Assembly (NCBI GenBank): GCA_000004985.1
Contig: GG738848.1
Length of the DNA: 64,000 nucleotides
DNA from: Naegleria gruberi
Lineage: Eukaryota
Direction: 5' to 3' (one strand)
Every line of letters begins with the position of its first letter. The stretch's first letter is position 1. This document shows, piece by piece, positions 5,216 to 27,544 of this stretch. The notes beneath the pieces were generated by a model. The model was not told where the DNA came from, searched no databases, and saw only the letters and a program-made list of their open reading frames with translations. The translations under genes and the position numbers were made by a program.

Positions 5216-6097
5216 ATGTCAAAACAAACTCCAATAGTTTCATGGTCACAGAGGAAGGAATTTATCAATTTAAATGTAGAAATTACTGATGCAAAAAATG
5301 TTCAAGTTTCTTTCACTGATGAGGGTTTAGTACGAGTGAATGCAAGCAATTCCGATGATAAAGACTTTGAATTACAATTGGAATTATTTAATCAAATTAG
5401 AGCTGAGTTGTGTAAATATAAAGTGACTGGAAGAAAGATTGAATTGAGAATTGAAAAATTGGTTGATGATGTTGAATTTTGGCCAAGATTAACAAAGAGC
5501 AAGGAAAAGAATAGAAATATTACTATTGATTGGAGTAGATGGGTTGATGATGAGGATGAAATTGAAGATGAGGAAGAACAAGAGGATGATGAATCTAATT
5601 GGATGAATCAAAATCAATTCCTAAATAATAATAATCAATCACTTCCAGAAGAATATGATGAAGAAAATGAGGAAGATTACAACGAGGATGATGAAGAAAA
5701 TGAGGAGGAAGAAAAGATTCATGATGGTGAATATGTTTGGTATGAAAACTTGGAAACTAAAGATGCACTCTATCAACATTTCATTGACTCTTACAGATTG
5801 AGAGTTGAGGATGACTATTCACTTAGAGGCAAGCAAAGAGGTCTCTATGCTCAAGAAGATCCATTACAAGATTTCAAAAAGTATCTTGGTAAGGCAAAGG
5901 AAAGAAAAGTATTCCCAGAATGGTGGACTGATAATAATGAACAAGAAATGATTCACATGGCTCTCAACGATGAGTGGGCCAACATTAAGTATGCAGTAGA
6001 GAAACACGACATTCAAGACAAGTACAATGCCATCACTCCTCTCGAACTACGAGCTCTTGCTGAGCTTGTTTTGGATAAAAATTATAGAAACCTTTAA
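5216..6097 (+). CDS. p23/CS-domain protein (HSP90 co-chaperone p23 / Sba1-like) with an acidic C-terminal extension
   Basis: ATG at 5216 after an A-run. The N-terminal ~110 aa match the CS/p23 fold pattern (V.W.QR...I.L.V.I.D....V.F........FELQLELF..I....C.YKV..RKIELRIEK...FWPRLTK......I.IDWSRWVDDEDE). It is followed by D/E-rich low complexity. Single exon, 293 aa. Confidence 0.7.
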   Translation: MSKQTPIVSWSQRKEFINLNVEITDAKNVQVSFTDEGLVRVNASNSDDKDFELQLELFNQIRAELCKYKVTGRKIELRIEKLVDDVEFWPRLTKSKEKNRNITIDWSRWVDDEDEIEDEEEQEDDESNWMNQNQFLNNNNQSLPEEYDEENEEDYNEDDEENEEEEKIHDGEYVWYENLETKDALYQHFIDSYRLRVEDDYSLRGKQRGLYAQEDPLQDFKKYLGKAKERKVFPEWWTDNNEQEMIHMALNDEWANIKYAVEKHDIQDKYNAITPLELRALAELVLDKNYRNL

Positions 6098-6234
6098 GTG
6101 CTTTTTATTAAATCCACCAATAGTCATTTATTATTTAATACTTTCCAAAACAAATAATTCAAATTGATTACTTCAATTCCACGATAGAAATGAAAAACCA
6201 AATTGAAAATATTTTATAAAATTAGATTGAAAAA

Positions 6235-8413
6235 ATGTCTCAAACATCGCAAGCTGCTGCTACTGATGAATTGAATCCTCACATACAATTAGACAACCAA
6301 AACAAGGTGGTGGTGGAGGAGGAGACTTGTTTGGATCATCATCATGATGATGTGAATATTGAAGAATCTTTAGAATCAACTATTGAACATTACCATGATG
6401 AAATTGAGGAGAATGAGGTAGTAGCAGATAATGATGATCATCATCAACAACATTCGGACTTGAATCAACAAAAGAATAAGAATAGAAAAAACAAGCCAAA
6501 GAAGGTTTTTCCTGCTTCTCAATTCTTTATTGCCAATCAATCAAAGAGTAATGAAGAAGCTAATCTAGTCGAAACGAATGATGATCATGATGAAGAAGAA
6601 TATTTTCATTCCGAAGAACCAGAACTTGCCTATCACTATAAAGGACATAGTTTTATAGTTAACAAGACAGCATATAAGCCAAATAGTAATTCTGGCAATG
6701 GCAGTAGTAGTAGCAATACAAACAACAAGAATAACAAATCAAAGAAGCAACATCACCACAATCATAGTCATCATCACAAATACAATAATTACTATCAAAG
6801 ACCAAAGACAAAGGAGGAATTTGTGTTGGCCAAGTAGGTATTACTGAAAATTTCAAATTAATATATACTAACCAATTTGAAAGCTTTCATTTCGTTTTGA
6901 GACCCCTTTCTCAGAGTAATACCAATTTTATTAATCAACAATTTCATATCACTGAATATAACAATGGAAAATTTGATGCAGACACACTAGTTGATTGGGA
7001 TACCATTGAATTGGTTATTCAACAAACTCATGATGAAAATCAAGAATGTCCAATTTGTCTTGATACATTTAAGGCACCTAAAATGACAAAATGTGGCCAT
7101 GGTAAGTTTTTAACATGTTTGAATATTGAATATTAAATTTATGATTAGTTTTTTGTTATCCTTGCATTTTGAGACATGTTGCTTTAGGAGAAACAAACTA
7201 TAGAAAGTGTCCTCTCTGCAATGAAAGTGTTTATATAGATGCATTGAGAAGTGTAAGAGTTGAATACAGGAAGAAATATAAAGAAAATGACAAGATGAAT
7301 TTAGTTTTGCTTAAACGAGATAAGAAACTTATAATTCCAGACCTTGTTTCTGAGTTGAACACTACCAAGGAGGGTGTTCAATCAAAGGATTTACCTACTA
7401 TTTATCCAGTTGATGGTGATTCTGAAAGTGCCAAATTTTCCCGATTTAATGTTACCTATGATATTTCTCAAATATTAGAAAAGGAACTTGCTGATTTGGA
7501 CAATTCTCTTAAAACATCTGAAAGTGCTGCGGAATCTGAATTTATAGTATTGGCAAAGGATCAAGTTCTTCAAAGAAAAAAGGATTGGCTTGAATGGACA
7601 AAAACACATTTGGCAAAGGGAAAACCAACCCAACCAAAAAACAAATCCTCACAAAAACCTGAAGTATCTCAAGCCACAGAGAAGAAAGAAGTTGAGGATT
7701 ATTGGTATTATCAATCCTCTGATTGTCAAATGATATTCTTACATCCTCTCTGTTCAAAAATGTTAATTCACGAATTCCAAGATTACAGTAATTTTCCAAC
7801 CAATCTCAATGATTGTCCAATATTAGAAATTGAAACAGTTGAACTCAATGAGGAATTAAGAAGGAGATATCCTGTTCTTAAGCATGTTCCTTGTGGTTGT
7901 TACATTTCTCTGGTAGAAATTGATATGAGGAATATTGTATCAAAGGAGACGATTAATACATTTATAAAAGATATTAAGCATAGAAAATATAGAAGAGACG
8001 AAAAGGTGAGAATGAGAATAAGAGAAGAACAAGAGGAAAAGAAGAATGAGGAAAAGAGAAAGGAAGAAGAAAGACTTGCCAGGGAAAGATTAATTCAAGA
8101 GTTGCACATTTCTAACTTTCCAGAACTTATTTCCACTCCTCCACCTGTTAACAGTGATTTCCACTTCCCTACAACGTTGAAAACAGTAACACCTGTCCAA
8201 CAACAACAGCAACCTGAAAAGAAACAAAAGAAGCCAAACGATTGGTCAAAACGTAAGCAACAAATAGACATTACCCAATCAGTAGCAAGTTCTTCAGTAC
8301 AATTACAAGGAGATTGGGCTAAGAAAACTAACACAAATACTACAACAAAGAATGTATCAACCAGTTCTGGTAAAAAAGATGATTTTCCATCCATAAAGTC
8401 AAAGAAGAAGTAA
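6235..8413 (+). CDS. RING-type E3 ubiquitin ligase, RNF10 (yeast Mag2)-like; 3 exons
   Basis: Exons 6235..6833, 6884..7101 and 7149..8413. The donor GTAGGT at 6834 and acceptor AAG at 6881-6883 give a 50-nt intron; the donor GTAAGT at 7102 and acceptor ...GATTAG at 7143-7148 give a 47-nt intron. Splicing rebuilds a C3HC4 RING: ECPICLDTFKAPKMTKCGH|VFCYPCILRHVALGETNYRKCPLCNESV, which is the RNF10 signature (CPICL...CGH.FC.PCIL.....W..CP.C). The starts of the track ORFs at 6897 and 7169 are TTG artefacts inside exons 2 and 3. The C-terminus is K/E-rich. Confidence 0.75.
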
Positions 8414-8467: not shown

Positions 8468-11400
8468 TTATGCATTTTTAGCAAGATATTTTTCAATTTT
8501 TTCTTTAAACATATCATCAATGTAAGTATTTTGAATGTTAATTACTCGAATGGTATTATTCGATTTGGCAAAATCAATCAAAGCTAAAGCTGCACCAATT
8601 GAAATCAAATTTCCACTCAAATCAAGCTCAACAATTGTTGGATGAGGCTTGAGAATTGAGACTAGGGTTTCAATAGCTGGATTTCTGAACCCTTGTTTTG
8701 GCAAACTCAATTTGTGGAATTCAACATTTAAAAGAGTTTCCAAGAAAGGCTCTAATCCCTTATCACCTAAATAATTGTCTGATAAATTAACTTCTCCATC
8801 GGTGACGATAGTATTTGTGCCAAATTGAGCTCTAAGACGAGTGTTTGGTCTAAGAGATCTCTTTTCACAGTTTTCAACATACACATCCTCAAGAGTTCTT
8901 TCCTTAACAGGTTCTTCTTCCTTAGTTTCTTCCACCACATATTCAGCTTGAGCTTCTTCGACATGTGTTTCTTCTGGTTGTTTGTGTTTTTCTGGTGCGT
9001 CAACACTTGTTTCCTCATGAGGTTCTTGTTTTTCCTCTGGTTGTTGGTGTTTTTCTTGCTTGTCTTCTTGTGTTTCTTCTTTTTGAGATGATTTCACGTG
9101 TGTTTCTTCTGAGAGTTTGGTATCAACAAAAGTTTCTTGGTGTGTTTCTTCCTGTGTTTCTTCATGATGGTTTGTTTCATCTTGTGTTGTGTATGAATCT
9201 TCAATTGTTTTAGTTTCTTCAGCAAATCTCACATGATGTTCCTCTTCAGTGGAAGATTCTTCTGAAGGTTGTTCTTCAAAGGTTTCAAAATCTTCTTCAA
9301 ACGAGTCAAACTCATCTTCCTTTTGAAGTTCAGCTTGTTCTTCTTCATGAGTTGTCTCCTTTTGTTCTTTTTGGTTATCTGCTGTCTCAATCTCTTCTGC
9401 TTGTACCTCCTCTTGTTGGTCAACCTCAAAAGGCAAACTTTCTTCATGGAATGGTTCTTGAACTGTTTGTTCTCTTGGAGATTCTTCTCCAGGAAAATGA
9501 TCCATATCTGTTTCTTGTTGATGACTTGTATCTTCTTTTTCTTCAGCTTCTTCTGATTGTTCTTTCATTTCCTTTTCCACTTGATCAACAAACTCGTTTG
9601 ATTCTTGTTTAATTTCTGTTGATTCCTCATTTGCAAACTCTTCGAATTGTTCCTCGAATTGATCTTCGAAGTGATCTTCGAATTGTTCCTCATGTTGATC
9701 TTGAGTTTCCTCTTGAGTTGGTTCATGGTCTTCTTGAGTTTCTTCTTGAGTTTCCTCATATTTCTCTTCGAAAAATTGATCTGTTTCATTGAACTCTTCC
9801 GTATTTTGCTCGAATTCATCAGTAGTTTCATTGAATTGATTTTCCTCAAAGTTTTCTTCATGACTTTCAATATTTTCAAAATTCTCATGTGTTTGTTCTT
9901 GGTTTTCAAGGCTCTCGAAGGTTTCTTCTTCAGTATTTTCTAGGGCAACTTCGTTATTTTCTGAGAATTCTTGTTCAACATGTTGTTTGCTGTTTTCAAA
10001 TTCATCCTCTTTAGTGACTTCCTCAGAAGATACTTCCTTAATGGACTCTTCATGTGCTGTTTGGTGAACCTCAAAGTCCTCTTCTTCTGAAACATGTACC
10101 TCTTCTGATTGTTCTTCATGTGATTCTTCCAATTCCTCTTGCTTACTTTCCACATATTCAACTGTTTCTTCAACTTGTTTAATCTCGCTTTCCTGATTGC
10201 TTTCTTGATGTCCAATATGTTCTTCGGTGCATTTAATTTCATCATTTTGTTCTTTGTGACTGTGTTCCTCAATAATTTGCTCCTCTTGTTCCTCAACCTT
10301 TTTGACCTCATCAACACTTTCGTGCTTAACTTGATGATGATCTTCAACCCTATCATGGTGTTCTTCATTCTTGATATCTTCCCTATGTTCTTCAGTTGTC
10401 TCAATGTTTTCATGATTCTCTTCGGTATGTTTATGCTCTTCAACAGATGCTTCCTCAATAGCTTGAGGTTTCTCTGTATTGGCAACTTCAAAAGGTAAGC
10501 TTTCCTCTTGAGGTGGTTCTGTAACTGGTTCCATTTTTGGTTCTTCTTCTTTGACAATTTCTTGTGCATGGATTTCTACTATTTCTTCAGTTTGCTCTTC
10601 GGAGGATTTGTTAATAATCTCAGTCTCTTGATATGCAATATTTTCTTGCTTATCATCGTGATTATGCTTTTCCTTCTTCTCTTCATTATCATGCTTTTCC
10701 TTCTTCTCTTCGTGATCATGTTTCTCAACCTTTTCTTCTTTCTTATCGTCTTTCTTCTCTTCAGGATCATGTTTTTTCTTCTCTTCCTTTTCTTCCTCAA
10801 CTTTCTCATCGTGTTTAAGCTCGTTTTTCTTCTCTTCATGATCATGCTTTTCCTTTTTCTCTTCACGATCATGAATCTCAACCTTTTCTTCCTTAACTTC
10901 CTCATGGTTATGTTTATCCTTCTCTTCATGAACATGTTTCTCAACATTTTCTTCCTTAACTTCCTTCTCATGGTTATGTTTATCCTTCTTTTCTTCATGA
11001 TCATGTTTCTCAACATTTTCTTTCTTATCCTCGTCGTGATTATGTATATCCTTCTTTTCTTCATGATCATTCTTTTCCTTCTCTTCGTGGTCATGTTTCT
11101 CAACATTTTCTTCCTTAACTTCCTTAACCTCCTCGTGGTTATGCTTATCCTTCTTTTCTTCATTTTCTGATTTTTTCTCATGACCTATTTCAAATGGCAA
11201 ACCTTCTTCTTGGAGTGGTTCTTGAATCGTTTGTTCTCTTGGGGATTCCACGTCTGCAAAATGATCCATATCTTCAATGTCTCTATGGCTTTTAGTTTCA
11301 GTATCTTCTTGTTCATGTGTTTCATGATCATCTAAGGTTTGATATTGCTCATGGTCGTGGCTTTCAGGAAGGGTAGAGCTGGTTTCATCATGATCCTCCT

Positions 11401-14281
11401 CAGTACACTCTTGTTCAGAGTGCACATCATGGAGATGAATAATAGATGTGTTGATTTCTTCCACATATTCGTTATGTTGGTCCGAATGTACTTCTTGCTT
11501 GATTTCTTCAATATGTTCACCGTGTTCCTCAACCTTTGTTTCCTCATGATTATACTGTTCATCTTGATGATCTGATGGTTCATGATGTTGAGTGGAATCG
11601 TGAGATTCCTGCTCTTCCATTTTTTCTACATGCTCGTCTTGCGCGCCAAATTGTTCATCTGTTTGCTCTACAGTATTAAGGGTGGACTCTTCAACATTCA
11701 CTTCCTCTTCATGTTGTATTTCTTCAGATTTAGGTTCTTCTACTTGTTGGACAGGTTCCTCTTCAAGTGGTTCGGCTGGTTCTTCCTCAGATGGAGATTC
11801 TTCTTGAACTGTGTCCTCATGAGTTGCTTCTATGGCTTGCTCTTCCAGTGGTGTCTCTTCAATAGGTTGCGATTCTTCTTGAATCAGATCTTGTGATTCT
11901 TGAACCTCTTCCTCTGGAGAAACAGGTTCCTCTTGTTCAATTTCTTCTTGTTGAGCTTCTTCGAAAAGTTGCTCTTCTTGAGTCTCTCCGGCTGAATTTT
12001 CTTGGACTGGTTCTTCCTCTTGTGTTTCTTCTTGAACAGTAGATTCCTCAATTGGTGCTTCTTGAACTGTTGCTTCTGGTGTTTCCTCAATTGGTTGATC
12101 ATCTTCAGTTTCTTGAGGAATTTCTTCAGTCTGTTCTTGAGCAGGTTGCTCTTCTTGAACATATTCCTCAATGTCAGCAGGTTGTGCTTCTTGAGCAACT
12201 TCCTCTTGAGAAACAGGTTCTTCCTGTTGAAGTTCTTCTTGTTTATCCTCAACTTCATGAGCAGTTGCTTCTAATGGTTGTTCTTCGTGTACTGGTTCCT
12301 CATCTACAACTTGCTCTATTGCAGGTTCTTCTGGTTGAACTTCTTCTTGTAGTGGCTCTTCATGCTCCTGGGTAGTTTCTTCTTGAGTTGTTACTTCTTC
12401 TGGTTGAGTTTCTACAATCTCCTCAGCTGGTTGAACTTCTTCTTGTAGTGGCTCTTCAGGAGAAGCTTCTTCTGGTTGAGGTTCTTCAATTCTTTCCTCC
12501 TGGGTTTCTTCCACTGGTGGTTCTTCTACTGGCCCAACTTGCTCTGGTTCTTGGGTCTCATCAACAGCTGATAGCTCTTCTTGGTGAGTTTCCACTTCTT
12601 GATCTGTAGATTCGTCAACCTCCTGCACTGGAACAGTTTCTGGGGAGGGGTCTTCATTGAGTTTCTCTTCCTCAGCTTGTTCCCCAACAGGTTGAGCTTC
12701 TTGAACCTCTTCCTCTGGTTGAATTTCTTCTTGCTCTTCTTGAACATGATCTTGGGAAGATTCTTCCTGGGTTGGTTCTTCAACTGGTTGTGATTCTTCT
12801 TGAATCAGATCTTGTGATTCTTGTTGGACCTCTTCCTCTTTAGAAACAGGTTCCTCTTGTTGAAGTTCTTCTTGTTTATCCTCAACTTCATGAGCAGTTG
12901 CTTCTAATGGTTGTTCTTCGTGTACTGGTTCCTCATCAACAACTTGCTCTATTGCAGGTTCTTCTGGTTGAGCTTCTTCAGCAGGAGATTCTTCTTGAAC
13001 TGTCTCTTGAGTTGGCTCGACAGGAAGGTCTTCTTGTGTCTCCAATGGTGCATCTTCAACAGGTTGAGCTTCTTCCTGGGTTGGTTCTTCAACTGGTTGT
13101 GATTCTTCTTGAATCAGATCTTGGGAATATTCTTCCTGGGCTACTGGTTGTTCTTCTTGAGCTACTTCCTCTTGTTCAATTTCTTCTTGTTGAGCTTCTT
13201 CTTCGAAACGTTGCTCTTCTTGAGTCTCTTCAGCCGAATGTTCTTGGATTGCTTCTTCCTCTTGTGTTTCTTCTTGAATAGTAGATTCCTCAATTGGCTC
13301 TTCTTGAACTGTTTCTTCAGGTGATTCTTGGATTGGTTCTTCTTGAGGAACTTCTTCTGTGGATTGAAGTATTTCTTGAGTTTCTTCTGCTTGAGGTTGC
13401 TCTTCTTCAGAAGGAGAAGAATTCACTTCTTGAGGAATTTCTTCAGTCTGTTCTTGAGGAGAATTCACTTCTGTTGCCTCAACAGGTAGGGTTTCCTCTT
13501 CCACTTGTTCTTGAGCTGGAGATTCTTCTGTTTGAGGTTGCTCTTCCAACGGAGCTTCCTCTTCAATAGGCTTATCCTCTTCTTGTGAAGGTTCTTCCTG
13601 AAGTTGTTCGTCCTTAGCTTCAGGCTGGTTTTCCTCGTTCAATTGATCAACCTGGGTTTGTTCTGCTGTTTCCTCTGCAACAGTTTGATTTTCCTCCTGA
13701 AATTCATTTAATTCAGTTTCCCCAGTTGGTGCTGATTCTTGTGGCTTCTCTTCCTCTACTGGTTGATTTTCTTGAGGTGATTCTTCTTGGATTGGTTCTT
13801 CTTGAGGTACTTCTTCTGTTTCTTCGGCCGTAGAAGTATTCACTTCTGTTACTGCTTCGGAAACTTCGGCAGCATCTGAGACAGGTTGTTCCTCTGTTTT
13901 TTCGTCCACTTTGGAATCCTCTTCCTTTGTTGGTTCTGAAATTTCTTCAGTAGTATTATTCTCGATTTGTTCCTTTTTTTCCTCTACAGGATGTTCCTCA
14001 GTATTTTCATTATTTACAGAATTTGATGGTTCCTTATGCTCTTTTTCATCAGAATTGAGGTTAGAAGCCGATACATTTTTTGAACCTTGTTGTTTTTGCT
14101 GATACTCATCCTTGACTGTATTTGCTAGAGCATCTCTGAAAGAAGCATTATCGATAAGAACAGGCGTAAGCTCGACACTTGTAGGAAGACTTTCCACTAC
14201 AGGTTCTGTAATTTCATCTTCATTAAAGTCATCTGTTGTATTTCCGATTAGATTATTATCGTTATGAACCTCAGTGCTCAT
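8468..14281 (-). CDS. giant (1,937 aa) hyper-acidic low-complexity repeat protein with C-terminal RNI-like leucine-rich-repeat cap
   Basis: Continuous minus-strand ORF. The real ATG is at 14279-14281 (aaaaagaATGagc; MSTEVHNDNN...); the track start at 14308 is a GTG artefact. Most of the body is E/Q/P/V-rich (EEPVQEE.., PEEPAIEQVVDEEPVHEEQPLEATAHEVEDKQEELQQEEPVS occurs twice). There is a His/Lys/Glu-rich block (KHDHEEKKDKHNHEEVKE repeats). The C-terminal ~180 aa are LRR/RNI-like (VEFHKLSLPKQGFRNPAIETLVSILKPHPTIVELDLSGNLISIGAALALIDFAKSNNTIRVINIQNTYIDD). Overlapping ORFs on the opposite strand are low-complexity artefacts. Confidence 0.8.
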   Translation of the reverse strand: MSTEVHNDNNLIGNTTDDFNEDEITEPVVESLPTSVELTPVLIDNASFRDALANTVKDEYQQKQQGSKNVSASNLNSDEKEHKEPSNSVNNENTEEHPVEEKKEQIENNTTEEISEPTKEEDSKVDEKTEEQPVSDAAEVSEAVTEVNTSTAEETEEVPQEEPIQEESPQENQPVEEEKPQESAPTGETELNEFQEENQTVAEETAEQTQVDQLNEENQPEAKDEQLQEEPSQEEDKPIEEEAPLEEQPQTEESPAQEQVEEETLPVEATEVNSPQEQTEEIPQEVNSSPSEEEQPQAEETQEILQSTEEVPQEEPIQESPEETVQEEPIEESTIQEETQEEEAIQEHSAEETQEEQRFEEEAQQEEIEQEEVAQEEQPVAQEEYSQDLIQEESQPVEEPTQEEAQPVEDAPLETQEDLPVEPTQETVQEESPAEEAQPEEPAIEQVVDEEPVHEEQPLEATAHEVEDKQEELQQEEPVSKEEEVQQESQDLIQEESQPVEEPTQEESSQDHVQEEQEEIQPEEEVQEAQPVGEQAEEEKLNEDPSPETVPVQEVDESTDQEVETHQEELSAVDETQEPEQVGPVEEPPVEETQEERIEEPQPEEASPEEPLQEEVQPAEEIVETQPEEVTTQEETTQEHEEPLQEEVQPEEPAIEQVVDEEPVHEEQPLEATAHEVEDKQEELQQEEPVSQEEVAQEAQPADIEEYVQEEQPAQEQTEEIPQETEDDQPIEETPEATVQEAPIEESTVQEETQEEEPVQENSAGETQEEQLFEEAQQEEIEQEEPVSPEEEVQESQDLIQEESQPIEETPLEEQAIEATHEDTVQEESPSEEEPAEPLEEEPVQQVEEPKSEEIQHEEEVNVEESTLNTVEQTDEQFGAQDEHVEKMEEQESHDSTQHHEPSDHQDEQYNHEETKVEEHGEHIEEIKQEVHSDQHNEYVEEINTSIIHLHDVHSEQECTEEDHDETSSTLPESHDHEQYQTLDDHETHEQEDTETKSHRDIEDMDHFADVESPREQTIQEPLQEEGLPFEIGHEKKSENEEKKDKHNHEEVKEVKEENVEKHDHEEKEKNDHEEKKDIHNHDEDKKENVEKHDHEEKKDKHNHEKEVKEENVEKHVHEEKDKHNHEEVKEEKVEIHDREEKKEKHDHEEKKNELKHDEKVEEEKEEKKKHDPEEKKDDKKEEKVEKHDHEEKKEKHDNEEKKEKHNHDDKQENIAYQETEIINKSSEEQTEEIVEIHAQEIVKEEEPKMEPVTEPPQEESLPFEVANTEKPQAIEEASVEEHKHTEENHENIETTEEHREDIKNEEHHDRVEDHHQVKHESVDEVKKVEEQEEQIIEEHSHKEQNDEIKCTEEHIGHQESNQESEIKQVEETVEYVESKQEELEESHEEQSEEVHVSEEEDFEVHQTAHEESIKEVSSEEVTKEDEFENSKQHVEQEFSENNEVALENTEEETFESLENQEQTHENFENIESHEENFEENQFNETTDEFEQNTEEFNETDQFFEEKYEETQEETQEDHEPTQEETQDQHEEQFEDHFEDQFEEQFEEFANEESTEIKQESNEFVDQVEKEMKEQSEEAEEKEDTSHQQETDMDHFPGEESPREQTVQEPFHEESLPFEVDQQEEVQAEEIETADNQKEQKETTHEEEQAELQKEDEFDSFEEDFETFEEQPSEESSTEEEHHVRFAEETKTIEDSYTTQDETNHHEETQEETHQETFVDTKLSEETHVKSSQKEETQEDKQEKHQQPEEKQEPHEETSVDAPEKHKQPEETHVEEAQAEYVVEETKEEEPVKERTLEDVYVENCEKRSLRPNTRLRAQFGTNTIVTDGEVNLSDNYLGDKGLEPFLETLLNVEFHKLSLPKQGFRNPAIETLVSILKPHPTIVELDLSGNLISIGAALALIDFAKSNNTIRVINIQNTYIDDMFKEKIEKYLAKNA
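10620..11170 (-). repeat. coding minisatellite (~60-66 nt unit) encoding His-rich KHDHEEKK/KHNHEEVKE repeats inside the giant acidic gene
   Basis: Directly visible tandem near-copies such as ttcttcatgatcatgtttctcaacattttcttccttaacttcct(t)ctcatggttatgtttatccttc, repeated at least 7 times with point differences. The translation is a periodic ...EEKKDKHNHEEVKEEKVEKHDHEEK... Confidence 0.8.
11850..13150 (-). repeat. degenerate tandem duplications (~630-nt super-unit with ~130-nt near-identical cores) in the E/Q/P/V-rich part of the giant gene
   Basis: Near-identical blocks at ~12213-12350 and ~12845-12975 (...aacaggttcytcctgttgaagttcttcttgtttatcctcaacttcatgagcagttgcttctaatggttgttcttcgtgtactggttcctcat...). 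Further copies ggttgtgattcttcttgaatcagatcttg occur at ~11861, ~12771 and ~13081. Confidence 0.7.
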
Positions 14282-15002
14282 TCTTTTTGTTTTTTCAATG
14301 TTATACACCTAGTTTATGTAATAAATAATTGTTTAAGTCCTTATTATTTAAAAAAATTAATGACCAACAATGTGTTGAGGGTTGTTGGGATTTTTTTTGT
14401 TCTGTCTCTTGCCCTTAAAATGCTCTTGCTAAGACTACAATGCAGCCAATATGACACATGCACAACCCGCCAATAAAAACTACAAAAAATCCTCTTTTAC
14501 GCCTGTACCTAACCAAGTACAAGGAGGTTCTTTGCAAAGATTTAAACTCACACCCAACGCTTTGACGATAATTGATGTGTTTGTGCCTCTCTACGAGTTG
14601 GGCGGGAAAGTAATAAAAAGAAAATGGGCATATAAAATACCAATTCTGTAAATTCTGTATCGATCACAGAAGAGATCCATTAGTATGATCTTCATCATTC
14701 TCTATTGTGAATAATTCTAAAGTTCAACTGAGATTTTAAACCTTGGAAAGAAATCAACACCAAACAAGTGTCTTCTCATTGTTACCAACTTGGAGAGCTC
14801 ATTATATCCAAACAGAACTCACAACAAATTGTAGGAATTTGTCTCATTTTGATGATCAGTTTCGTCTGCCTAATTTTATTAGACAAGTAAGATTTGAATT
14901 TGTATTTAAAGATTTAACAGGTCTTAATCTGGAATATTTCTGAATTACCATTAGGTAGCTATTCCAATGAAAACAAGATAAAGTTATGTAGACTATTATT
15001 AT

Positions 15003-16109
15003 TTAGTTTGATCCCAGAGCTCTTCCAGAACCCCAGCTGTGATTATTGGCTGATTGGTCGTTCGAATTATTGTTTCCTCCTCTAAACCACCCACTAATAC
15101 TGCTCATAAATCCACCTGAACTTGGTTGACTCGGGGTTGATTGAGTATCTTGTTGATTTGTTTGTGCTGTTGCGCTTGTAAAAACAGCCTCATTAGATAC
15201 AAAGTAAAAAGATCTTTCTCTGATAAATTTTGGAATTTTTCTGTCAATAAACAGGAATACCTTATTAATTGGTGTTACAAATCTCACAAGGATCCAAATC
15301 AAATATCCAGAAATCATGCCAGTCAAATGTCCCATCAATGAGACATTTGGCATTAACAATGAAGTAACAATTAACATTAACCATGGAATTAATTTAGGTG
15401 CAAAATCATCTGCATTGGCACCAGGATATAACTGTTCAAAAAGTGGTCTATATTGAACTGTAAAAACTAAATATCCAAACAAAACACCACTATATCCCAC
15501 AGTGCATCTATCCAATAAAAAGGAAAGTGTTTGTCCAGCTCCAAAACCTTGAATAAAAAGTGCATCAATAGCAACCCAAACAGCAGATCCAAATATTATC
15601 ATAAATAATGAAATAAAGAAAAAGTATATAGTTCCAAGTGTTGATTCAATCCTATTTCCGAATTGATATAAAGCCAGCATGTTAAACAATATATGTGTTA
15701 TACTCCCATGAAAGAAAGGGAATGTAAATAATTGCCAAACTTTAGTGGTTAATATTGTTGTGGAGTATCTATAGCAAATATCAGAAGACTTTGGTTCATT
15801 GAAAACGCCCTGTACAATATACAAAATAATACAAACACAAAATACAATATTACTACATAATGGAAAATATAAAAACCAATTTTTAACTTTGATATGAATA
15901 GGATCTTCAATATGATAGCCAGATTCAGGCTGCGAAGGAATTGTATGAATATTTGATGATCCACCTGTTGATGATCCAATTGCAGTATTCGTTAGAAATC
16001 CTCCTGAAGAAGATGATGATGTTTGTTGATTATTATTGTGGCTTCCTCCTCTTTGTAAGTCTTGTACTCGACCACTTGGAGAGAAAAACTCCCTTCCAAA
16101 CGAAAACAT
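15003..16109 (-). CDS. rhomboid-family intramembrane serine protease
   Basis: First ATG at 16107-16109 (caacaaaaaATGttt); the track start at 16145 is a TTG artefact. Rhomboid motifs are present: HGSITHILFNMLAL (TM2 H..H...N), GYSGVLFG (GxSG catalytic Ser) and MGHLTGMISGYL (catalytic His). There are several predicted TM helices, with S/G/N-rich termini. No intron detected. Confidence 0.8.
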   Translation of the reverse strand: MFSFGREFFSPSGRVQDLQRGGSHNNNQQTSSSSSGGFLTNTAIGSSTGGSSNIHTIPSQPESGYHIEDPIHIKVKNWFLYFPLCSNIVFCVCIILYIVQGVFNEPKSSDICYRYSTTILTTKVWQLFTFPFFHGSITHILFNMLALYQFGNRIESTLGTIYFFFISLFMIIFGSAVWVAIDALFIQGFGAGQTLSFLLDRCTVGYSGVLFGYLVFTVQYRPLFEQLYPGANADDFAPKLIPWLMLIVTSLLMPNVSLMGHLTGMISGYLIWILVRFVTPINKVFLFIDRKIPKFIRERSFYFVSNEAVFTSATAQTNQQDTQSTPSQPSSGGFMSSISGWFRGGNNNSNDQSANNHSWGSGRALGSN

Positions 16110-17771: not shown

Positions 17772-20510
17772 TTACTTTCTGTGGGCAAGAATGTGTACAC
17801 CATCATTAATTCTGGCACGAATATTACCCAAACTTTCCTTGATCTTATCACGGAAAGCATTATCTGCTTCCTCTTTAGAGGCATCGAGAATTAAACATTT
17901 TCTCAACCACAAGACATCTTCAATACTTGACAATTCTGGGATACCTGTACCCAACATTAATGTAAACAAGGTCATTATCATGTGACCATATTTACGTAAA
18001 ATATTGTAAGCCTTACAACCTAATTCACTGAATTTTTCATACATGACACTATTTTCACCACCCATAACATAGGCATACATTGGAGTGAAAACGAAAGGAG
18101 TAGTTTCACGTTTCAAACCAGCAAATGTCTTAAAGTGCCCCAAAAAGTGGCCAAAGTCAATGTGGAACAAGTCTCCCTTCTTGGTTATCATAATATTGTC
18201 ATTGTGTCTGTCACCAATACCTAAAACATAGGTTGCAGAACAGTAACCTGCACAAGAGTGTACAAAGTTATTAACTACTGTATCCCATTCTTCTTCACCG
18301 TTATGTTCTTTGAGCCATTTGTAAATTGGATCTTGTTTGAAAGCACCAGAGAAACCAGCTCTCTTCTTTGTAATATTTGCAATGGTTTGACTGTTTAAAA
18401 CAATTTCAAGCATACCAGTCATATAACCAGTACAAATACAACCATAAGGTTGCATATGAAGATCTAAACCTTCCTTCTTCCACAACTGATCCATAACACG
18501 TAAAACTTGCAAGGTCAATAAATCCTGACGTAAATCGTCACCAGCCTTAAACATGACAAGAATATCATCACCTGTTTCGTCAGCATTCTTGAAACAAAGC
18601 CATAATGGCCTCTTTGCAGAGTCCATGACTCTACATTTTTCTGGAATGATACCAATAACTTCCATACGTGGAGAGAGTGGTAACTTGTATTTTGGTGGTT
18701 GTTTGAGTCCATGAAGTAATTGTACAAGTGCTTCATTAACAGTAGCCTTCTTTTCATGTTTGATCTTAATGGCAATATCGAGCAATTGATCCAAAACACC
18801 GTTTTGTTTCAACAATTCTCTTCTGTGACCACCTGAATTCAATAAATATTCTTCCAAGATAAGACCGTGTCTCTCTTTTGCTGTTGGAACGTGCATTTCG
18901 GCCTTCAAATGCCAAAAGAGAATGTGACCAATGATGTGTGTTGATCTCAAACCTCTTTGAAGCAAAAATCTAGCAAGACTACTGTCATGATATAATTCAT
19001 ACTTAAGTGTTTGAACTAATTGAAGCAAAAAGTCACTCAATTGAACATCTCCTAATTCATTAAGTCTTTCAACTGAATATTGTCTAACTTTTGCATCAGC
19101 AAAGTTATAGTCCAATAATTCTAAAGCATCAACTGGAGTCATTGGTTTCCATCTAGGAAGTAATGTGTGAACAGTATAGACAGCTTGTGGCATCTTCCAT
19201 GGCACGCTCAAAATAAACTTTGGTAAAGCTTTTGGTATGTCAACAAGCTTTTCCTTATTGGACCAAAGTAACCATTTTTCTTCCTCTGTTAGATTTTGAA
19301 GTGGATCTTTGGAAATAATCTGATCAAGTCTCTGTTTCAGTTGTTCTCCTTGTGGTAAATCTTTGAAAAATTCATTAATCTTTTGTTCAAAAGAGGCCAA
19401 ACGTTTAGCCATCTTCTTTGGAGGTCTACCTTGAGGGAAGACCACTGGCAGTGGATAACGATCAAATTGATAAGCAATAACGATTGGTGTTTCATCAGTT
19501 CCAGTATTTTCAGCAACGACACTAATTGGTTTAGCTCTATCATTTGGCCACATTGGAGAAAGATAATCTCCTTGGTTCAAAAATCCCTTAAAGTTAATCA
19601 TTGTCTTAATCACATAACCGAGAGGAATATCCTTTGTACTGACGTGTGAAGGTGTATGGAAAGGATCTTTGGAAGTTGTTTGATTCTTTGTTATCACTCT
19701 TGAGAAGAGAGTAAAGCAGAGCTTTGTTTCTCTTGGAATATCAGAAAGTAAAACATCATCAAATACTATGAATTGATTCCATCTAGGAGATCTACTGAAA
19801 GGTACCATTTTAGTAAATCTGGCTTTTGTAAGTGGTGTACCACCGTGATATAATTCACAGCATACATATAAATAGGTATCGTCAATTTGAGACAAATTTG
19901 AAATAGAGTTGAAATTGAGATTGTCAATGCCCATAATTTTAACTCGTGCACATTTGACTAAATCCCACAAACTCAAATACTGCATTTTGTGCCATTCCTT
20001 TTCTCCAAAACGAATGTCATCATGTGCATAAATTTTTTGGTCCTTCTCGTGTTTAAAATCATATGAAACAGTTTTAAGAGTGACATCTCTAGGATCCAAT
20101 TCAGCCTTCACAGTTTCCTTATCTAAAAGTGTTAGTGTTGGCTTAACTGCCTTTTTCATACATTTTCTAATATGTTCAAATTCTGCCATTTTGTAATCAC
20201 CATACATGTATTCGGCAGTACCAGCTGCTTTAAATACCCAATCTTCCTTCTTTCTTCTCTGTTGATGGGCTGTATTCAATTTGTTTAAAAATATTTCAGC
20301 AAAATCGTCAGCTGTCGTGTTAAAATCACATTCAACAAGTTTTGCTGCCTTATTACCATCAAGTGTACAATTTACGTTAATGTAGAATTTTTTAGTCAAT
20401 TCATTTGGATTAATTGGTTCAACACTCAAAAATACAGGTGGAAGGAAAGCTTCTCTGTCTTCACTTTTCTTATCACTCTTTTCAAAGTGTTGAAGTCTGA
20501 AATTTTCCAT
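17772..20510 (-). CDS. phosphatidylinositol 3-kinase catalytic subunit, class I-like (Ras-binding domain, C2, PIK helical and kinase domains)
   Basis: ATG at 20508-20510. The 912-aa ORF has RBD-like and C2-like regions (LYVCCELYHGG..PRWNQFIVFDD), a helical domain, and a lipid-kinase catalytic core (KAGDDLRQD, GIGDRHNDNIMI, HIDFGHFLG). It has no p85-binding N-terminal domain, a p110-gamma-like layout. Confidence 0.85.
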   Translation of the reverse strand: MENFRLQHFEKSDKKSEDREAFLPPVFLSVEPINPNELTKKFYINVNCTLDGNKAAKLVECDFNTTADDFAEIFLNKLNTAHQQRRKKEDWVFKAAGTAEYMYGDYKMAEFEHIRKCMKKAVKPTLTLLDKETVKAELDPRDVTLKTVSYDFKHEKDQKIYAHDDIRFGEKEWHKMQYLSLWDLVKCARVKIMGIDNLNFNSISNLSQIDDTYLYVCCELYHGGTPLTKARFTKMVPFSRSPRWNQFIVFDDVLLSDIPRETKLCFTLFSRVITKNQTTSKDPFHTPSHVSTKDIPLGYVIKTMINFKGFLNQGDYLSPMWPNDRAKPISVVAENTGTDETPIVIAYQFDRYPLPVVFPQGRPPKKMAKRLASFEQKINEFFKDLPQGEQLKQRLDQIISKDPLQNLTEEEKWLLWSNKEKLVDIPKALPKFILSVPWKMPQAVYTVHTLLPRWKPMTPVDALELLDYNFADAKVRQYSVERLNELGDVQLSDFLLQLVQTLKYELYHDSSLARFLLQRGLRSTHIIGHILFWHLKAEMHVPTAKERHGLILEEYLLNSGGHRRELLKQNGVLDQLLDIAIKIKHEKKATVNEALVQLLHGLKQPPKYKLPLSPRMEVIGIIPEKCRVMDSAKRPLWLCFKNADETGDDILVMFKAGDDLRQDLLTLQVLRVMDQLWKKEGLDLHMQPYGCICTGYMTGMLEIVLNSQTIANITKKRAGFSGAFKQDPIYKWLKEHNGEEEWDTVVNNFVHSCAGYCSATYVLGIGDRHNDNIMITKKGDLFHIDFGHFLGHFKTFAGLKRETTPFVFTPMYAYVMGGENSVMYEKFSELGCKAYNILRKYGHMIMTLFTLMLGTGIPELSSIEDVLWLRKCLILDASKEEADNAFRDKIKESLGNIRARINDGVHILAHRK

Positions 20511-27387: not shown

Positions 27388-27544
27388 TTGTTTTGGATAA
27401 TTAATTTTATACTTTACAATAATTGGACACAACTGCGCATAAACAAACCAATAAATATCTATGGTTACCGAATGTTACGCATAACACCAAGGAAGCACAT
27501 ATTGACGGATGCATTCTATTGAAATCATGTTTACAATAAAAAAA

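What the first reader, a model, noticed from the sequence alone, without database searches (positions are those of the whole stretch)
8468..14281. 1,937-aa hyper-acidic protein built from nested tandem repeats with an RNI-like LRR cap
More than 1,700 residues are E/Q/P/V-rich or H/K/E-rich low complexity, generated by recent tandem duplications. Examples are a ~66-nt minisatellite and ~130-nt near-identical cores spaced ~630 nt apart. It is capped by ~180 aa of leucine-rich repeats that resemble tropomodulin, CARMIL or RNI-type LRR caps. Proteins of this kind (PEVK/elastic-spring-like, or polyanionic ion- and metal-binding) are rarely characterised. Repeat copy number is likely polymorphic.
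Basis: seen in the sequence. Interest (0 to 1): 0.6.

Follow-up and report, generated by a model that had tools for sequence, protein, structure and literature searches.

The report
Giant acidic disordered protein, LRR anchor
This is a real but apparently unannotated Naegleria gruberi gene for a 1,937-residue, extremely acidic, floppy protein that ends in a small leucine-rich-repeat domain; related amoebae keep only that domain and a few short motifs, one shaped like a protein phosphatase 1 docking site, so it is probably an anchored docking scaffold, with function unproven.

Summary
Window 8468-14281 (minus strand) is one uninterrupted 1,937-codon ORF: 29.5% Glu, 10% Gln, net charge -542. It contains in-frame nested DNA repeats and ends in a small RI-type LRR domain of about 145 aa (two cap helices plus four 28-aa repeats), not about 180 aa.

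The window is Naegleria gruberi NEG-M. No N. gruberi protein model for this ORF turned up in three large searches. Positional orthologues exist in N. fowleri, N. lovaniensis and Willaertia magna. All are single-exon (shown for N. fowleri and Willaertia), next to the same convergent RING-finger gene, and uncharacterised.

The 1,400-2,270-aa disordered region has turned over almost completely in sequence and composition. What survives is the LRR module and a few short islands: E[SG]LPF, FEExFExF, SQDL, and exactly one RVxF-type motif upstream of the LRR in each of the four species. N. gruberi's lineage-specific duplications tripled two of these islands.

Best reading: an LRR-anchored polyanionic scaffold carrying short docking motifs, possibly docking PP1 (about 0.3). 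PEVK, tropomodulin and CARMIL membership are not supported. Interest is moderate.

The parts
8468..14281 (-). Complete single-exon CDS, 1,937 codons plus stop (stop at 8468-8470, ATG at 14279-14281)
   Evidence: The N- and C-terminal conserved blocks lie in the same frame as in the orthologues. Codon usage matches the neighbouring genes.
14081..14206 (-). N-terminal conserved island, aa 26-67 ([25 protein letters not shown]...TVKD). It is Naegleria-specific and itself contains an ESLP core.
   Evidence: 63-67% identity to N. lovaniensis and N. fowleri. No convincing match in Willaertia.
11612..13981 (-). E/Q/P/V-rich polyanionic region, aa 101-890 (E 34%, Q 15%, P 9%, V 8%, K 2%, R 0%; net -0.36 per residue). 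It holds the nested 633-nt and 1251-nt duplications.
12832..12979 (-). 148-nt near-identical repeat, copy A (partner at 12199-12346; 96.6% identity, offset 633 nt = 211 codons)
   Evidence: Over 49 codons there are 3 synonymous and 2 non-synonymous differences.
12199..12346 (-). 148-nt near-identical repeat, copy B
13071..13407 (-). Older duplication of about 340 nt, copy A (partner at 11841-12156; 77% identity, offset 1251 nt = 417 codons)
11841..12156 (-). Older duplication of about 340 nt, copy B
13103..13126 (-). SQDLIQEE island, copy 1 (aa 386-393)
   Evidence: Island conserved in N. lovaniensis (aa 691) and N. fowleri (aa 689); 20.6 bits against a null maximum of 20.1
12794..12817 (-). 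SQDLIQEE island, copy 2 (aa 489-496)
11873..11896 (-). SQDLIQEE island, copy 3 (aa 796-803)
10577..11191 (-). H/K/E-rich repeat region, aa 1031-1235 (E 31%, K 24%, H 13%). Units of about 22 aa of the form ...VEKHDHEEKKDKHNHEE... are encoded by the 66-nt minisatellite (10836-11070) and the flanking 27/48-nt arrays (10641-11163).
11192..11275 (-). LPF unit 1, aa 1003-1030 (EDMDHFADVESPREQTIQEPLQEEGLPF)
   Evidence: (family D10)
10490..10573 (-). LPF unit 2, aa 1237-1264 (...EPVTEPPQEESLPF), a diverged copy
9428..9511 (-). LPF unit 3, aa 1591-1618 (TDMDHFPGEESPREQTVQEPFHEESLPF)
   Evidence: EESLPF is the only 6-mer shared by all three Naegleria IDRs (0.03 expected).
9635..9682 (-). Phe/acidic cluster 1, aa 1534-1549 (FEDHFEDQFEEQFEEF)
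9278..9319 (-). Phe/acidic cluster 2, aa 1655-1668 (EDEFDSFEEDFETF), just upstream of the RVxF as in the orthologues
9224..9238 (-). RVxF-type motif HHVRF, aa 1682-1686, 107 aa upstream of the LRR module, in a predicted disordered segment
8798..8917 (-). N-terminal cap of the LRR module, aa 1789-1828: two helices carrying the family signature Y..xC......PN
   Evidence: AF2 model helices at residues 9-19 and 26-33. Y13, C17 and N25 are invariant in the family alignment.
8471..8797 (-). Four RI-type leucine-rich repeats of 28, 28, 28 and 25 aa (aa 1829-1937: 8714-8797, 8630-8713, 8546-8629, 8471-8545), running to the last residue

Best explanation
The region is a genuine single-exon protein-coding gene of Naegleria gruberi that appears to be missing from the public protein sets. 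Its product has two parts. The first is an intrinsically disordered polyanion of about 1,720 residues with no signal peptide or membrane segment. The second is a compact C-terminal protein-binding module: two cap helices plus four ribonuclease-inhibitor-type LRRs. This module defines an uncharacterised protist family. I infer that the LRR module anchors the protein to a partner or structure. The acidic chain then acts as a long, charge-extended tether that displays a few conserved short linear motifs: E[SG]LPF, a Phe/acidic cluster, SQDLxxEE and one RVxF-type motif. The most specific inferred activity is recruitment of the protein phosphatase 1 catalytic subunit through the RVxF motif next to the solenoid domain, in the manner of MYPT1 (RVxF plus ankyrin repeats). 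In N. gruberi, in-frame nested tandem duplications lengthened the E/Q/P/V spacer and tripled the SQDL and LPF motifs. Shown: the ORF, composition, repeats, fold, orthology and motif conservation. Inferred: anchoring, scaffold function and PP1 binding (about 0.3 on its own).
For: Gene reality: a 1,937-codon ORF whose N-terminal island (63-67% identity) and C-terminal domain (72-73% identity) are conserved in frame in N. lovaniensis and N. fowleri. The N. fowleri and Willaertia orthologues are single exons with the same convergent RING-finger gene downstream. Codon usage matches the neighbours.
Disorder: AF2 gives pLDDT below 50 for aa 1590-1786 and about 90 for the LRR. No 19-aa window in aa 1-1788 exceeds Kyte-Doolittle hydropathy 0.75.
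Motifs: an unbiased rarity-weighted scan of the three Naegleria IDRs ranks LPF (24.7 and 23.4 bits), FEExFExF (22.4), HVRF (22.2) and SQDL (20.6) above the maximum of 40 local shuffles (20.1).
RVxF: each of the four heterolobosean giants has exactly one strict RVxF match, always 22-168 aa upstream of the LRR. None of the 14 other family members has one. The per-protein chance of a match is 4-12%. KHVRF and KHVSF satisfy all three published consensus forms.
Motif multiplication by in-frame repeats.
Against: There is no experimental or expression evidence at all. N. gruberi's own motif, HHVRF, satisfies only one of the three published RVxF consensus forms. RVxF-like strings occur by chance in 4-12% of shuffled sequences of this size. 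The extended [KR][KR]-prefixed consensus used for protist PP1 interactors is not met in any of the four species. No SILK or MyPhoNE companion motif lies in the disordered region; the only SILK in N. gruberi is inside an LRR helix. The LRR family exists without RVxF in other protists, including the heterolobosean Acrasis, so PP1 cannot be the module's ancestral partner. AF2 showed no docking of any island onto the LRR. No family member has a known function, and the literature searches found nothing.
Confidence: 0.5

Rival explanations
1. It is a passive polyanion. The protein would be a high-capacity sink or buffer for cations (Ca2+ or Mg2+; Zn2+, Ni2+ or Cu2+ through the His/Glu tracts) or for basic proteins such as histones, comparable to prothymosin-alpha, the ANP32 acidic tail, calsequestrin or HRC. 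The LRR would only localise it, and the RVxF-like string would have no function.
For: The one bulk property kept across all four orthologues is a long chain rich in acidic residues: 25-37% D+E against 4-13% K+R. N. fowleri and N. lovaniensis have 13-14% His, including an 11-His run. N. gruberi has a 13-14% His segment at aa 891-1235 with HxH-type repeats. The sequence between the islands is unconstrained.
Against: His-richness is not conserved: 5% in N. gruberi and 3% in Willaertia. Several short islands are conserved above the shuffled null, which bulk charge alone does not explain. There is no signal peptide, so it is not a lumenal Ca2+ store of the calsequestrin/HRC kind.
Confidence: 0.25
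2. It is a cytoskeletal spacer, spring or actin regulator. The acidic chain would be an entropic bristle or spring (like titin PEVK or neurofilament sidearms), and the LRR would bind actin filament ends or capping protein as in tropomodulin, leiomodin or CARMIL.
Against: The similarity is generic RI-type LRR. FAP101, NLRP1, RanGAP and DRC5 score as well or better. There is no Pfam Tropomodulin or CARMIL match, no tropomyosin- or actin-binding site 1, no PH, HD or CP-binding region. The module has only 4 repeats. The E/Q/P/V region has 2% K, so it lacks the PEVK polyampholyte character.
Confidence: 0.12
3. It is a flagellar, basal-body or microtubule-associated LRR protein used in the amoeba-to-flagellate transformation, related to axonemal RI-type LRR proteins such as FAP101 (central pair), DRC5 and LRRC34.
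Against: These are multi-repeat proteins matched on generic repeats. None has the architecture of a C-terminal 4-LRR module plus a giant IDR. A polyanion would be repelled by the acidic tubulin tails (general knowledge). There are no expression data.
Confidence: 0.08
4. It is not a functional gene: a spurious ORF kept open by GAA-rich low-complexity DNA, or an assembly expansion or collapse artefact.
For: No N. gruberi protein model was found in three searches. Low-complexity DNA here also keeps ORFs of 100-220 aa open in other frames.
Against: Both ends are conserved and collinear in frame, with positional orthologues in four species. The C-terminal domain folds with confidence. All duplication offsets are multiples of 3. 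Repeat copies are diverged (at most 96.6% identity over 148 nt), so a mis-assembly is unlikely.
Confidence: 0.03

Closest known systems
Unnamed protist family with a C-terminal 'cap + 4 RI-type LRR' module. Orthologues: N. fowleri FDP41_009509 (XP_044556916), N. lovaniensis C9374_014364 (XP_044552956), Willaertia magna ABK040_006661 (KAL9654599). More distant members: Acrasis kona AKO1_007374, and small proteins from Cryptobia borreli, Ancoracysta twista, MMETSP transcriptomes and metagenomes.
   Same: The whole module aligns in a single stretch at the extreme C-terminus, with the signature Y..xC......PN / NYLGDxG / NGLRN / HP..x.DLSxNxIS / TxID. The three Naegleria/Willaertia proteins also share the giant acidic IDR, the single RVxF, the single-exon structure (shown for N. 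fowleri and Willaertia) and the convergent RING-finger neighbour.
   Different: All members are 'hypothetical protein'. Most are only 144-231 aa with little or no IDR and no RVxF. IDR composition differs completely between species: E/Q/P/V in N. gruberi, H/E/S/T in N. fowleri and N. lovaniensis, E/K/N in Willaertia, and not acidic in Acrasis. The nested repeats are specific to N. gruberi.
RVxF-type PP1 regulatory subunits that pair the motif with a solenoid domain: MYPT1 (RVxF + ankyrin repeats); PPP1R37/LRRC68 (RVxF + RI-type LRR). Both architectures are recalled from memory and were not tested here.
   Same: A single RVxF-type motif sits in a disordered segment directly upstream (22-168 aa) of a repeat-solenoid protein-binding domain. 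It is followed by acidic residues and conserved across orthologues.
   Different: No sequence relationship was demonstrated. The N. gruberi variant HHVRF is a weak match. There is no MyPhoNE or SILK motif. The LRR has only 4 repeats. There is a 1,700-aa polyanion N-terminal to it. PP1 binding is untested.
Ribonuclease inhibitor / RNI-like LRR superfamily, including CARMIL, tropomodulin/leiomodin, RanGAP1, NLR LRRs, and the axonemal proteins FAP101, DRC5 and LRRC34
   Different: Only four repeats plus a specific two-helix cap. None of the accessory domains that define those families is present. Pfam LRR_6 falls below its gathering score on the single sequence (19.0 against 23.4 bits).
ANP32 (acidic leucine-rich nuclear phosphoprotein 32) and RanGAP1: LRR domain plus acidic low-complexity region
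   Different: The order is reversed: LRR first, then an acidic tail of only about 40-100 aa. ANP32 uses SDS22/U2A'-type repeats rather than RI-type. No sequence match was found.
Titin PEVK / poly-E segments, and KNL1-type scaffolds whose short-motif arrays evolve quickly by tandem repeats
   Same: Long disordered E/P/V-rich sequence generated by tandem duplication, and lineage-specific multiplication of short motifs inside repeat units.
   Different: The PEVK-like region has 2% K and no PPAK repeats, so it is a polyanion rather than a polyampholyte. It has no kinetochore domains. A Naegleria kinetochore study does not mention such a protein.

Membership tests
RI-type (RNI-like) LRR superfamily | Tandem 28-29-aa repeats with the consensus LxxLxLxxNxLGDxGaxxLaxaL | tested here: met
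   Four repeats of 28/28/28/25 aa. The PDB profile search gives ribonuclease inhibitor at E 6e-16 (3-sequence profile) and 3e-39 (18-sequence profile).
RI-type (RNI-like) LRR superfamily | Beta-strand/alpha-helix solenoid fold | tested here: met
RI-type (RNI-like) LRR superfamily | Pfam LRR_6 (PF13516) at or above its gathering score | tested here: not met
   The single sequence scores 19.0 bits against a cut-off of 23.4 (E 0.0013). This is a short-model sensitivity issue, because the profile and fold evidence are decisive.
C-terminal 'cap + 4 RI-LRR' protist family (unnamed) | A single full-length match to the module, ending at the protein's C-terminus, with the invariant cap residues Y, C and N | tested here: met
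   18-sequence alignment; Y13, C17, N25, G51, N79 and N103 are invariant.
Tropomodulin / leiomodin | N-terminal tropomyosin-binding and actin-binding site 1 region (Pfam Tropomodulin PF03250) | tested here: not met
   No Pfam family matches the full protein at E <= 0.1.
Tropomodulin / leiomodin | C-terminal LRR domain (ABS2) fold | tested here: met
CARMIL | PH domain + 16-repeat LRR + dimerisation domain + capping-protein-binding region | tested here: not met
   Only 4 repeats are present and there are no other Pfam domains. The fold match is to a sub-segment of the CARMIL LRR.
Titin-type PEVK segment | P, E, V and K all abundant (a polyampholyte) in ~28-aa PPAK repeats and poly-E motifs | tested here: not met
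   aa 101-890 has E 34%, Q 15%, P 9%, V 8%, K 2%, R 0%, and there is no Pfam match.
RVxF-type PP1-interacting proteins | Sequence matches a published RVxF consensus | tested here: inconclusive
   N. gruberi HHVRF fits [HKR][ACHKMNQRSTV]V[CHKNQRST][FW] but not the two other forms. The orthologues' KHVRF and KHVSF fit all three. None fits the extended [KR][KR] form.
RVxF-type PP1-interacting proteins | The motif lies in an accessible, disordered segment and is conserved among orthologues | tested here: met
   pLDDT below 50 around the motif. There is one motif per orthologue, always upstream of the LRR, and the island scores above the shuffled null.
RVxF-type PP1-interacting proteins | Physical, RVxF-dependent binding to the PP1 catalytic subunit | not testable with these tools
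   This needs a pull-down or ITC, or at least a complex prediction with Naegleria PP1c.
ANP32 | N-terminal SDS22/U2A'-type LRR cap followed by a C-terminal acidic tail | tested here: not met
   The order is reversed and the repeats are RI-type 28-mers. No Pfam LRR_9 or ANP32-type hit was found.

The most novel reading that the evidence does not exclude
This is a Vahlkampfiid-specific (Naegleria + Willaertia) phosphatase-targeting scaffold of a new architecture. A four-repeat LRR anchor and an adjacent RVxF recruit PP1 to a cellular structure, while a polyanionic tether of 1,400-2,300 residues displays multivalent docking motifs of unknown partners (E[SG]LPF, SQDLxxEE, Phe/acidic clusters). Selection acts on bulk charge, length and these motifs only. 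The chain's composition has therefore been rewritten completely between sister species (E/Q/P/V, H/E/S/T, E/K/N), and tandem duplication tunes motif valency.
Probability: 0.25. Interest if true: 0.55.

Novelty: new variant of a known kind. Interest (0 to 1): 0.4.

Why it matters
First, it points to a large gene (5.8 kb, one of the longest ORFs in this 64-kb window) that seems to be missing from the reference N. gruberi protein set. The likely cause is that low-complexity sequence was masked or rejected during annotation, so other such genes may be missing too.

Second, the four positional orthologues form a clean natural experiment in disordered-protein evolution. The same locus, the same folded anchor and the same handful of short motifs persist, while the intervening 1,400-2,270 residues have changed amino-acid alphabet. 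N. gruberi shows how this happens, through in-frame nested duplications that multiply motifs.

Third, the conserved RVxF next to an LRR gives a cheap, testable hypothesis for a protein family with no known function. That family includes a protein of the pathogen N. fowleri. None of this is a surprise of principle: long acidic disordered proteins, RI-type LRRs and RVxF motifs are all well known.

Tried and rejected
- **C-terminal 220-aa search:** the word-indexed protein database returned nothing and missed even the 72%-identical orthologues later found with the full-length query. This was a sensitivity failure, not evidence of absence.
- **Exact-sequence look-ups:** the ORF is not in the collection with either start codon. 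The contig look-up for the neighbouring rhomboid protein also failed, so the N. gruberi annotation around the gene could not be read directly.
- **Pfam:** the whole protein and the orthologues gave no family; only a sub-threshold LRR_6 hit appeared on the C-terminus.
- **Family-profile search for a named member:** only unnamed proteins and one automatic 'RanGAP' label on a weak hit.
- **PDB search with the cap-proximal half of the family profile:** only FAP101 and one bovine axonemal chain match the cap, so no family member has been solved.
- **AlphaFold-database fold library:** not available.
- **AF2 of aa 1590-1937, to see whether the LPF, F/acidic or RVxF islands dock on the LRR:** all islands stayed disordered, giving no support for an intramolecular interaction.
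- **Other short motifs considered:**
  - FxDxF (AP-2 alpha-ear motif): one match, FEDHF in N. gruberi, not conserved. Rejected.
  - SILK: the only N. gruberi match is inside an LRR helix. Rejected.
  - Clathrin box, LxxIxE, PxIxIT/LxVP, SxIP and FFAT were checked by eye with no convincing match.
- **N-terminal island in Willaertia:** no significant match.
- **Acrasis kona:** the relative has a longer ORF than annotated, but no RVxF and no hyper-acidity.
- **Literature:** nothing on the locus tags, on PPP1R37/LRRC68 together with RVxF, or on Naegleria His/Glu-rich proteins; the Naegleria kinetochore preprint is unrelated.
- **Other window ORFs:** among those of at least 250 aa scanned (17 of 21), no phosphatase or obviously linked gene was found.
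Full report

Yes. The mechanical ORF list shows one open frame at 8468..14308 on the minus strand, 1,946 codons from a GTG. The first ATG is at 14281 and gives 1,937 aa plus a stop at 8468-8470, and an in-frame stop lies just upstream. The product is 29.5% Glu, 10.0% Gln, 6.6% Val, 6.6% Thr, 6.0% Lys and 5.6% Pro, with net charge -542. Every 100-residue block from aa 101 to 1800 is dominated by Glu, and only the last ~150 residues are Leu-rich and near neutral.

- A 66-nt unit x3.6 at 10836-11070 (82% matches), inside a wider 27/48/66-nt periodic zone at 10641-11163.
- A 148-nt pair at 96.6% identity, at 12832-12979 and 12199-12346, spaced 633 nt (E 7e-67).
- An older ~340-nt pair at 77% identity, offset 1251 nt (E 6e-74).
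- An 84-nt pair at 85% identity, offset 1764 nt.

All offsets are multiples of three. Two corrections apply. The folded C-terminal module is about 145-149 aa, not about 180 aa. The minisatellite units are already 63-82% diverged, so only the 148-nt pair is recent. ORFs of 100-220 aa in other frames of this region are side effects of the low-complexity sequence.

**2. Where the window comes from, and whether the gene is known**

The neighbouring rhomboid ORF (15003-16109, minus strand) is identical to XP_002682089 of Naegleria gruberi NEG-M. The 1,937-aa sequence is not in the 15-billion-protein collection with either start codon. A full-length search returned only two proteins, neither from N. 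gruberi. The exhaustive profile search of 1.84 billion cluster representatives also returned no N. gruberi entry for this domain. The gene therefore seems to be unannotated in NEG-M. I could not read the annotation directly, because the contig look-up failed.

The two hits are hypothetical proteins: N. lovaniensis C9374_014364 (2,410 aa) and N. fowleri FDP41_009509 (2,426 aa). The profile search added Willaertia magna ABK040_006661 (1,572 aa). Neither Naegleria locus tag appears in the searchable literature.

**3. Orthology and gene structure**

The N. fowleri gene is one uninterrupted 7,281-nt exon. A RING-finger gene converges on its 3' end. The window ORF at 7169-8413, which converges on our gene with a 54-nt gap, is the orthologue of that RING gene (57% identity, E 1e-125). 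Willaertia has the same arrangement: a single 4,719-nt exon with a convergent RING-finger gene 10 nt downstream.

These are therefore positional orthologues. A single unspliced coding exon is the conserved state. Codon usage in the ORF (GAA:GAG 422:150; CAA:CAG 176:18) matches the neighbouring genes. This effectively rules out a spurious ORF.

**4. Anatomy of the protein**

- **(a) N-terminal island, aa 26-67** ([25 protein letters not shown]...TVKD). It is 63-67% identical in the other two Naegleria species and is not detectable in Willaertia.
- **(b) E/Q/P/V polyanion, aa 101-890.** Composition is E 34%, Q 15%, P 9%, V 8%, K 2%, R 0%, with net charge -0.36 per residue. It holds the nested 633- and 1251-nt duplications.
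- **(c) His/Asp/Glu/Thr-rich segment, aa 891-1030.**
- **(d) H/K/E repeats, aa 1031-1235.** Units are about 22 aa (...VEKHDHEEKKDKHNHEE...), with E 31%, K 24% and H 13%. They are encoded by the minisatellite.
- **(e) E/H/F-rich region, aa 1236-1788.** It contains the remaining motif islands.
- **(f) LRR module, aa 1789-1937.**

No 19-residue window in aa 1-1788 exceeds Kyte-Doolittle hydropathy 0.75, so there is no signal peptide or membrane segment. AlphaFold2 on aa 1590-1937 gives pLDDT below 50 for all of 1590-1786 and about 90 for the LRR.

**5. The C-terminal module**

A three-species alignment gave a confident model (pLDDT 84, pTM 0.77) with two cap helices followed by four beta-alpha units. 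The repeats are 28, 28, 28 and 25 residues long.

- Sequence profiles hit ribonuclease inhibitor at 6e-16, and at 3e-39 with the 18-sequence family profile. NLRs, RanGAP, CARMIL, tropomodulin and many axonemal LRR proteins follow.
- Foldseek ranks FAP101 at 7e-6 and tropomodulin at 3e-4, with CARMIL at TM 0.73.

The match is generic, though, and none of the accessory regions that define those families is present.

More specifically, the exhaustive search found 5,013 proteins at E <= 0.001. Most of the 150 listed hits match through many stretches, but 15 of them match once, over the whole module, ending at their own C-terminus. These share a signature: Y..xC......PN in the cap, then NYLGDxG, NGLRN, HP...DLSxNxIS and TxID.

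Members come from Willaertia, Acrasis kona, Cryptobia borreli, Ancoracysta twista, MMETSP transcriptomes and metagenomes. All are unnamed. Most are 144-231 aa. A few (788 aa, 934 aa, and the Acrasis ORF, which is really at least 769 aa rather than the annotated partial 317 aa) carry long disordered N-terminal regions of unrelated composition. No member has a solved structure.

**6. What is conserved inside the disordered region**

BLAST with low-complexity filtering aligns only the two ends between N. gruberi and its orthologues. Composition has turned over:
- N. gruberi: E 29.5%, Q 10%, H 5%.
- N. lovaniensis and N. fowleri: E 18%, H 13-14%, S 9-10%.
- Willaertia: 27% D+E, 13% K+R, 3% H.

To avoid cherry-picking, I scanned all 8-residue windows for positions identical in the three Naegleria IDRs. 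Positions were weighted by residue rarity and compared with 40 local-composition shuffles (null maximum: mean 17.9, sd 1.0, highest 20.1 bits). Four islands exceed the null:

| Island | Score (bits) |
|---|---|
| L.EE[SG]LPF | 24.7 and 23.4 |
| FEExFExF | 22.4 |
| HVRF | 22.2 |
| SQDL[IA]xEE | 20.6 |

EESLPF is also the only 6-mer shared by all three IDRs, against 0.03 expected. The islands are collinear between species: N-island, SQDL, then the LPF / F-acidic / HVRF group, then the LRR.

N. gruberi has three SQDL copies (aa 386, 489, 796) and three LPF units (aa 1003-1030, 1237-1264, 1591-1618). N. fowleri and N. lovaniensis have one of each. These extra copies sit inside the DNA repeats. The tandem duplications have therefore multiplied conserved motifs as well as spacer.

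N. fowleri has no DNA repeat of at least 60 nt in its gene. Willaertia has its own in-frame repeats: 92 nt at 92% identity with spacing 600, and 67 nt at 85% identity with spacing 546. Repeat expansion is thus lineage-specific and recurrent. Two N. fowleri isolates differ by two substitutions and a three-His indel (2,426 against 2,429 aa).

**7. The RVxF lead**

The HVRF island has the form of the PP1-docking RVxF motif. [quoted passage not shown]

With the second form, each of the four heterolobosean giants has exactly one match:
- HHVRF at aa 1682 in N. gruberi.
- KHVRF at aa 2090 in N. lovaniensis and at aa 2111 in N. fowleri.
- KHVSF at aa 1409 in Willaertia.

The match always lies 22-168 aa upstream of the LRR cap. 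None of the 14 other family members has one. Global shuffles of each protein produce at least one match in 4-12% of trials. The motif lies in predicted disorder and in Naegleria is followed by acidic residues.

Caveats:
- The N. gruberi variant satisfies only one of the three consensus forms.
- None of the four meets the extended [KR][KR] form used for Plasmodium PP1 interactors (PMC4794898).
- There is no companion SILK or MyPhoNE motif in the disordered region.
- The LRR family exists without RVxF elsewhere, so PP1 would be a clade-specific addition.

From memory only, MYPT1 (RVxF next to ankyrin repeats) and PPP1R37/LRRC68 (RVxF next to RI-type LRRs) are the functional analogues. I could not retrieve those sequences to test this, and a literature search on PPP1R37 found nothing.

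**8. Best explanation and rivals**

I commit to the following. This is a real gene whose product is an LRR-anchored polyanionic tether that displays a small set of docking motifs. PP1 recruitment through the RVxF is the most specific inferred step. I put about 0.5 on the scaffold model as a whole and about 0.3 on PP1 specifically. The ORF, composition, repeats, fold, orthology and motif conservation are shown. Anchoring, tethering and PP1 binding are inferred.

Rivals:
- **A passive polyanion that sinks metals or basic proteins (0.25).** It is favoured by the conserved bulk acidity and the His tracts. It is weakened by non-conserved His content and by the conserved motifs.
- **A cytoskeletal spring, or an actin-end regulator of the Tmod/CARMIL kind (0.12).** The fold match is only generic, and the 'PEVK-like' region has 2% Lys.
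- **An axonemal or basal-body LRR protein (0.08).** The best named structural hits are axonemal, but the resemblance is again generic.
- **A non-gene or assembly artefact (0.03).** Orthology contradicts it.

**9. Novelty and score**

Every component is familiar: RI-type LRRs, acidic disordered proteins, RVxF motifs and repeat-driven IDR evolution. The combination is not described. It consists of a giant polyanion in front of a four-repeat C-terminal LRR module from an uncharacterised protist family. The IDR's amino-acid alphabet has been replaced between sister species, while the motifs and the locus are retained. I rate it a new variant of a known kind, with interest 0.4. It is useful as an annotation correction, as a clean case study of disordered-region evolution, and as a testable PP1 hypothesis for a protein family that includes one from the pathogen N. 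fowleri. It is not a surprise of principle.

Noticed in passing
window 8468-14281 (-): The 1,937-aa ORF has no N. gruberi entry in any protein collection searched, although its neighbour (rhomboid, XP_002682089) is present. It is likely an unannotated gene in the NEG-M reference, perhaps lost to low-complexity masking.
   Followed up: partly
window ~6787-8413 (+): The ORF at 7169-8413 (listed with a TTG start, no Pfam hit) is the 3' part of a multi-exon RING-finger gene orthologous to the N. fowleri 833-aa and Willaertia 713-aa RING proteins. tblastx similarity extends upstream to about 6787 in other frames, implying introns. It converges on the target gene with a 54-nt gap in N. gruberi, about 107 nt in N. 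fowleri and about 10 nt in Willaertia.
   Followed up: partly
window 41651-42835 (-) and 50735-52036 (+): Two further RI-type LRR proteins (Pfam LRR_6, E 2e-31 and 3e-36) lie in the same window. N. gruberi appears rich in this repeat class. Their relationship to the target's LRR module was not examined.
   Followed up: no
L003 6660-8969 (Acrasis kona JAOPGA020000605.1): The Acrasis kona model KAL0479871 (317 aa, 'partial') is truncated. The ORF is open for at least 769 aa. A separate upstream ORF (5704-6489) carries an NFEEDFEDY Phe/acidic cluster like the one next to the Naegleria RVxF. A metagenomic family member (P0075) starts with a similar DEDFDDFDEFE cluster.
   Followed up: partly
P0003 vs P0157 (N. 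fowleri), aa ~1095: Two N. fowleri assemblies differ in this gene by two substitutions and a three-His indel in a His run (2,426 against 2,429 aa). This is direct evidence of length polymorphism in the disordered region.
   Followed up: yes
P0100 (934 aa, Logan assembly, unknown protist): Another long-IDR member of the LRR family repeats a [VL]PFQ(Q/Y)WIA(H/Q)EI motif several times. This faintly resembles the Naegleria E[SG]LPFE island ([LV]PF[EQ]). It could be coincidence or a shared docking motif.
   Followed up: no
window 8468-14281, other frames (e.g. 10508-11170 +, 10579-11181 -, 9940-10569 -): ORFs of 100-220 aa open in other frames and on the opposite strand are artefacts of the GAA-rich low-complexity DNA. 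The region also shows a strong AT skew of about -0.45 on the plus strand.
   Followed up: yes
tool behaviour: The word-indexed protein search with the C-terminal 220 aa returned nothing, although orthologues with a 142-aa block at 72-73% identity exist and were found with the full-length query. 'No hits' from that tool on short or biased queries should not be read as absence.
   Followed up: yes
window 5216-6097, 17772-20510, 22201-23964, 27509-28888, 36875-39346, 39369-41420: Ordinary neighbouring genes: a CS-domain protein, a class I PI3-kinase, a Myb protein, an aminotransferase, the Spb1 rRNA methyltransferase and a Sac1-domain phosphatase. None has an evident link to the target gene.
   Followed up: yes
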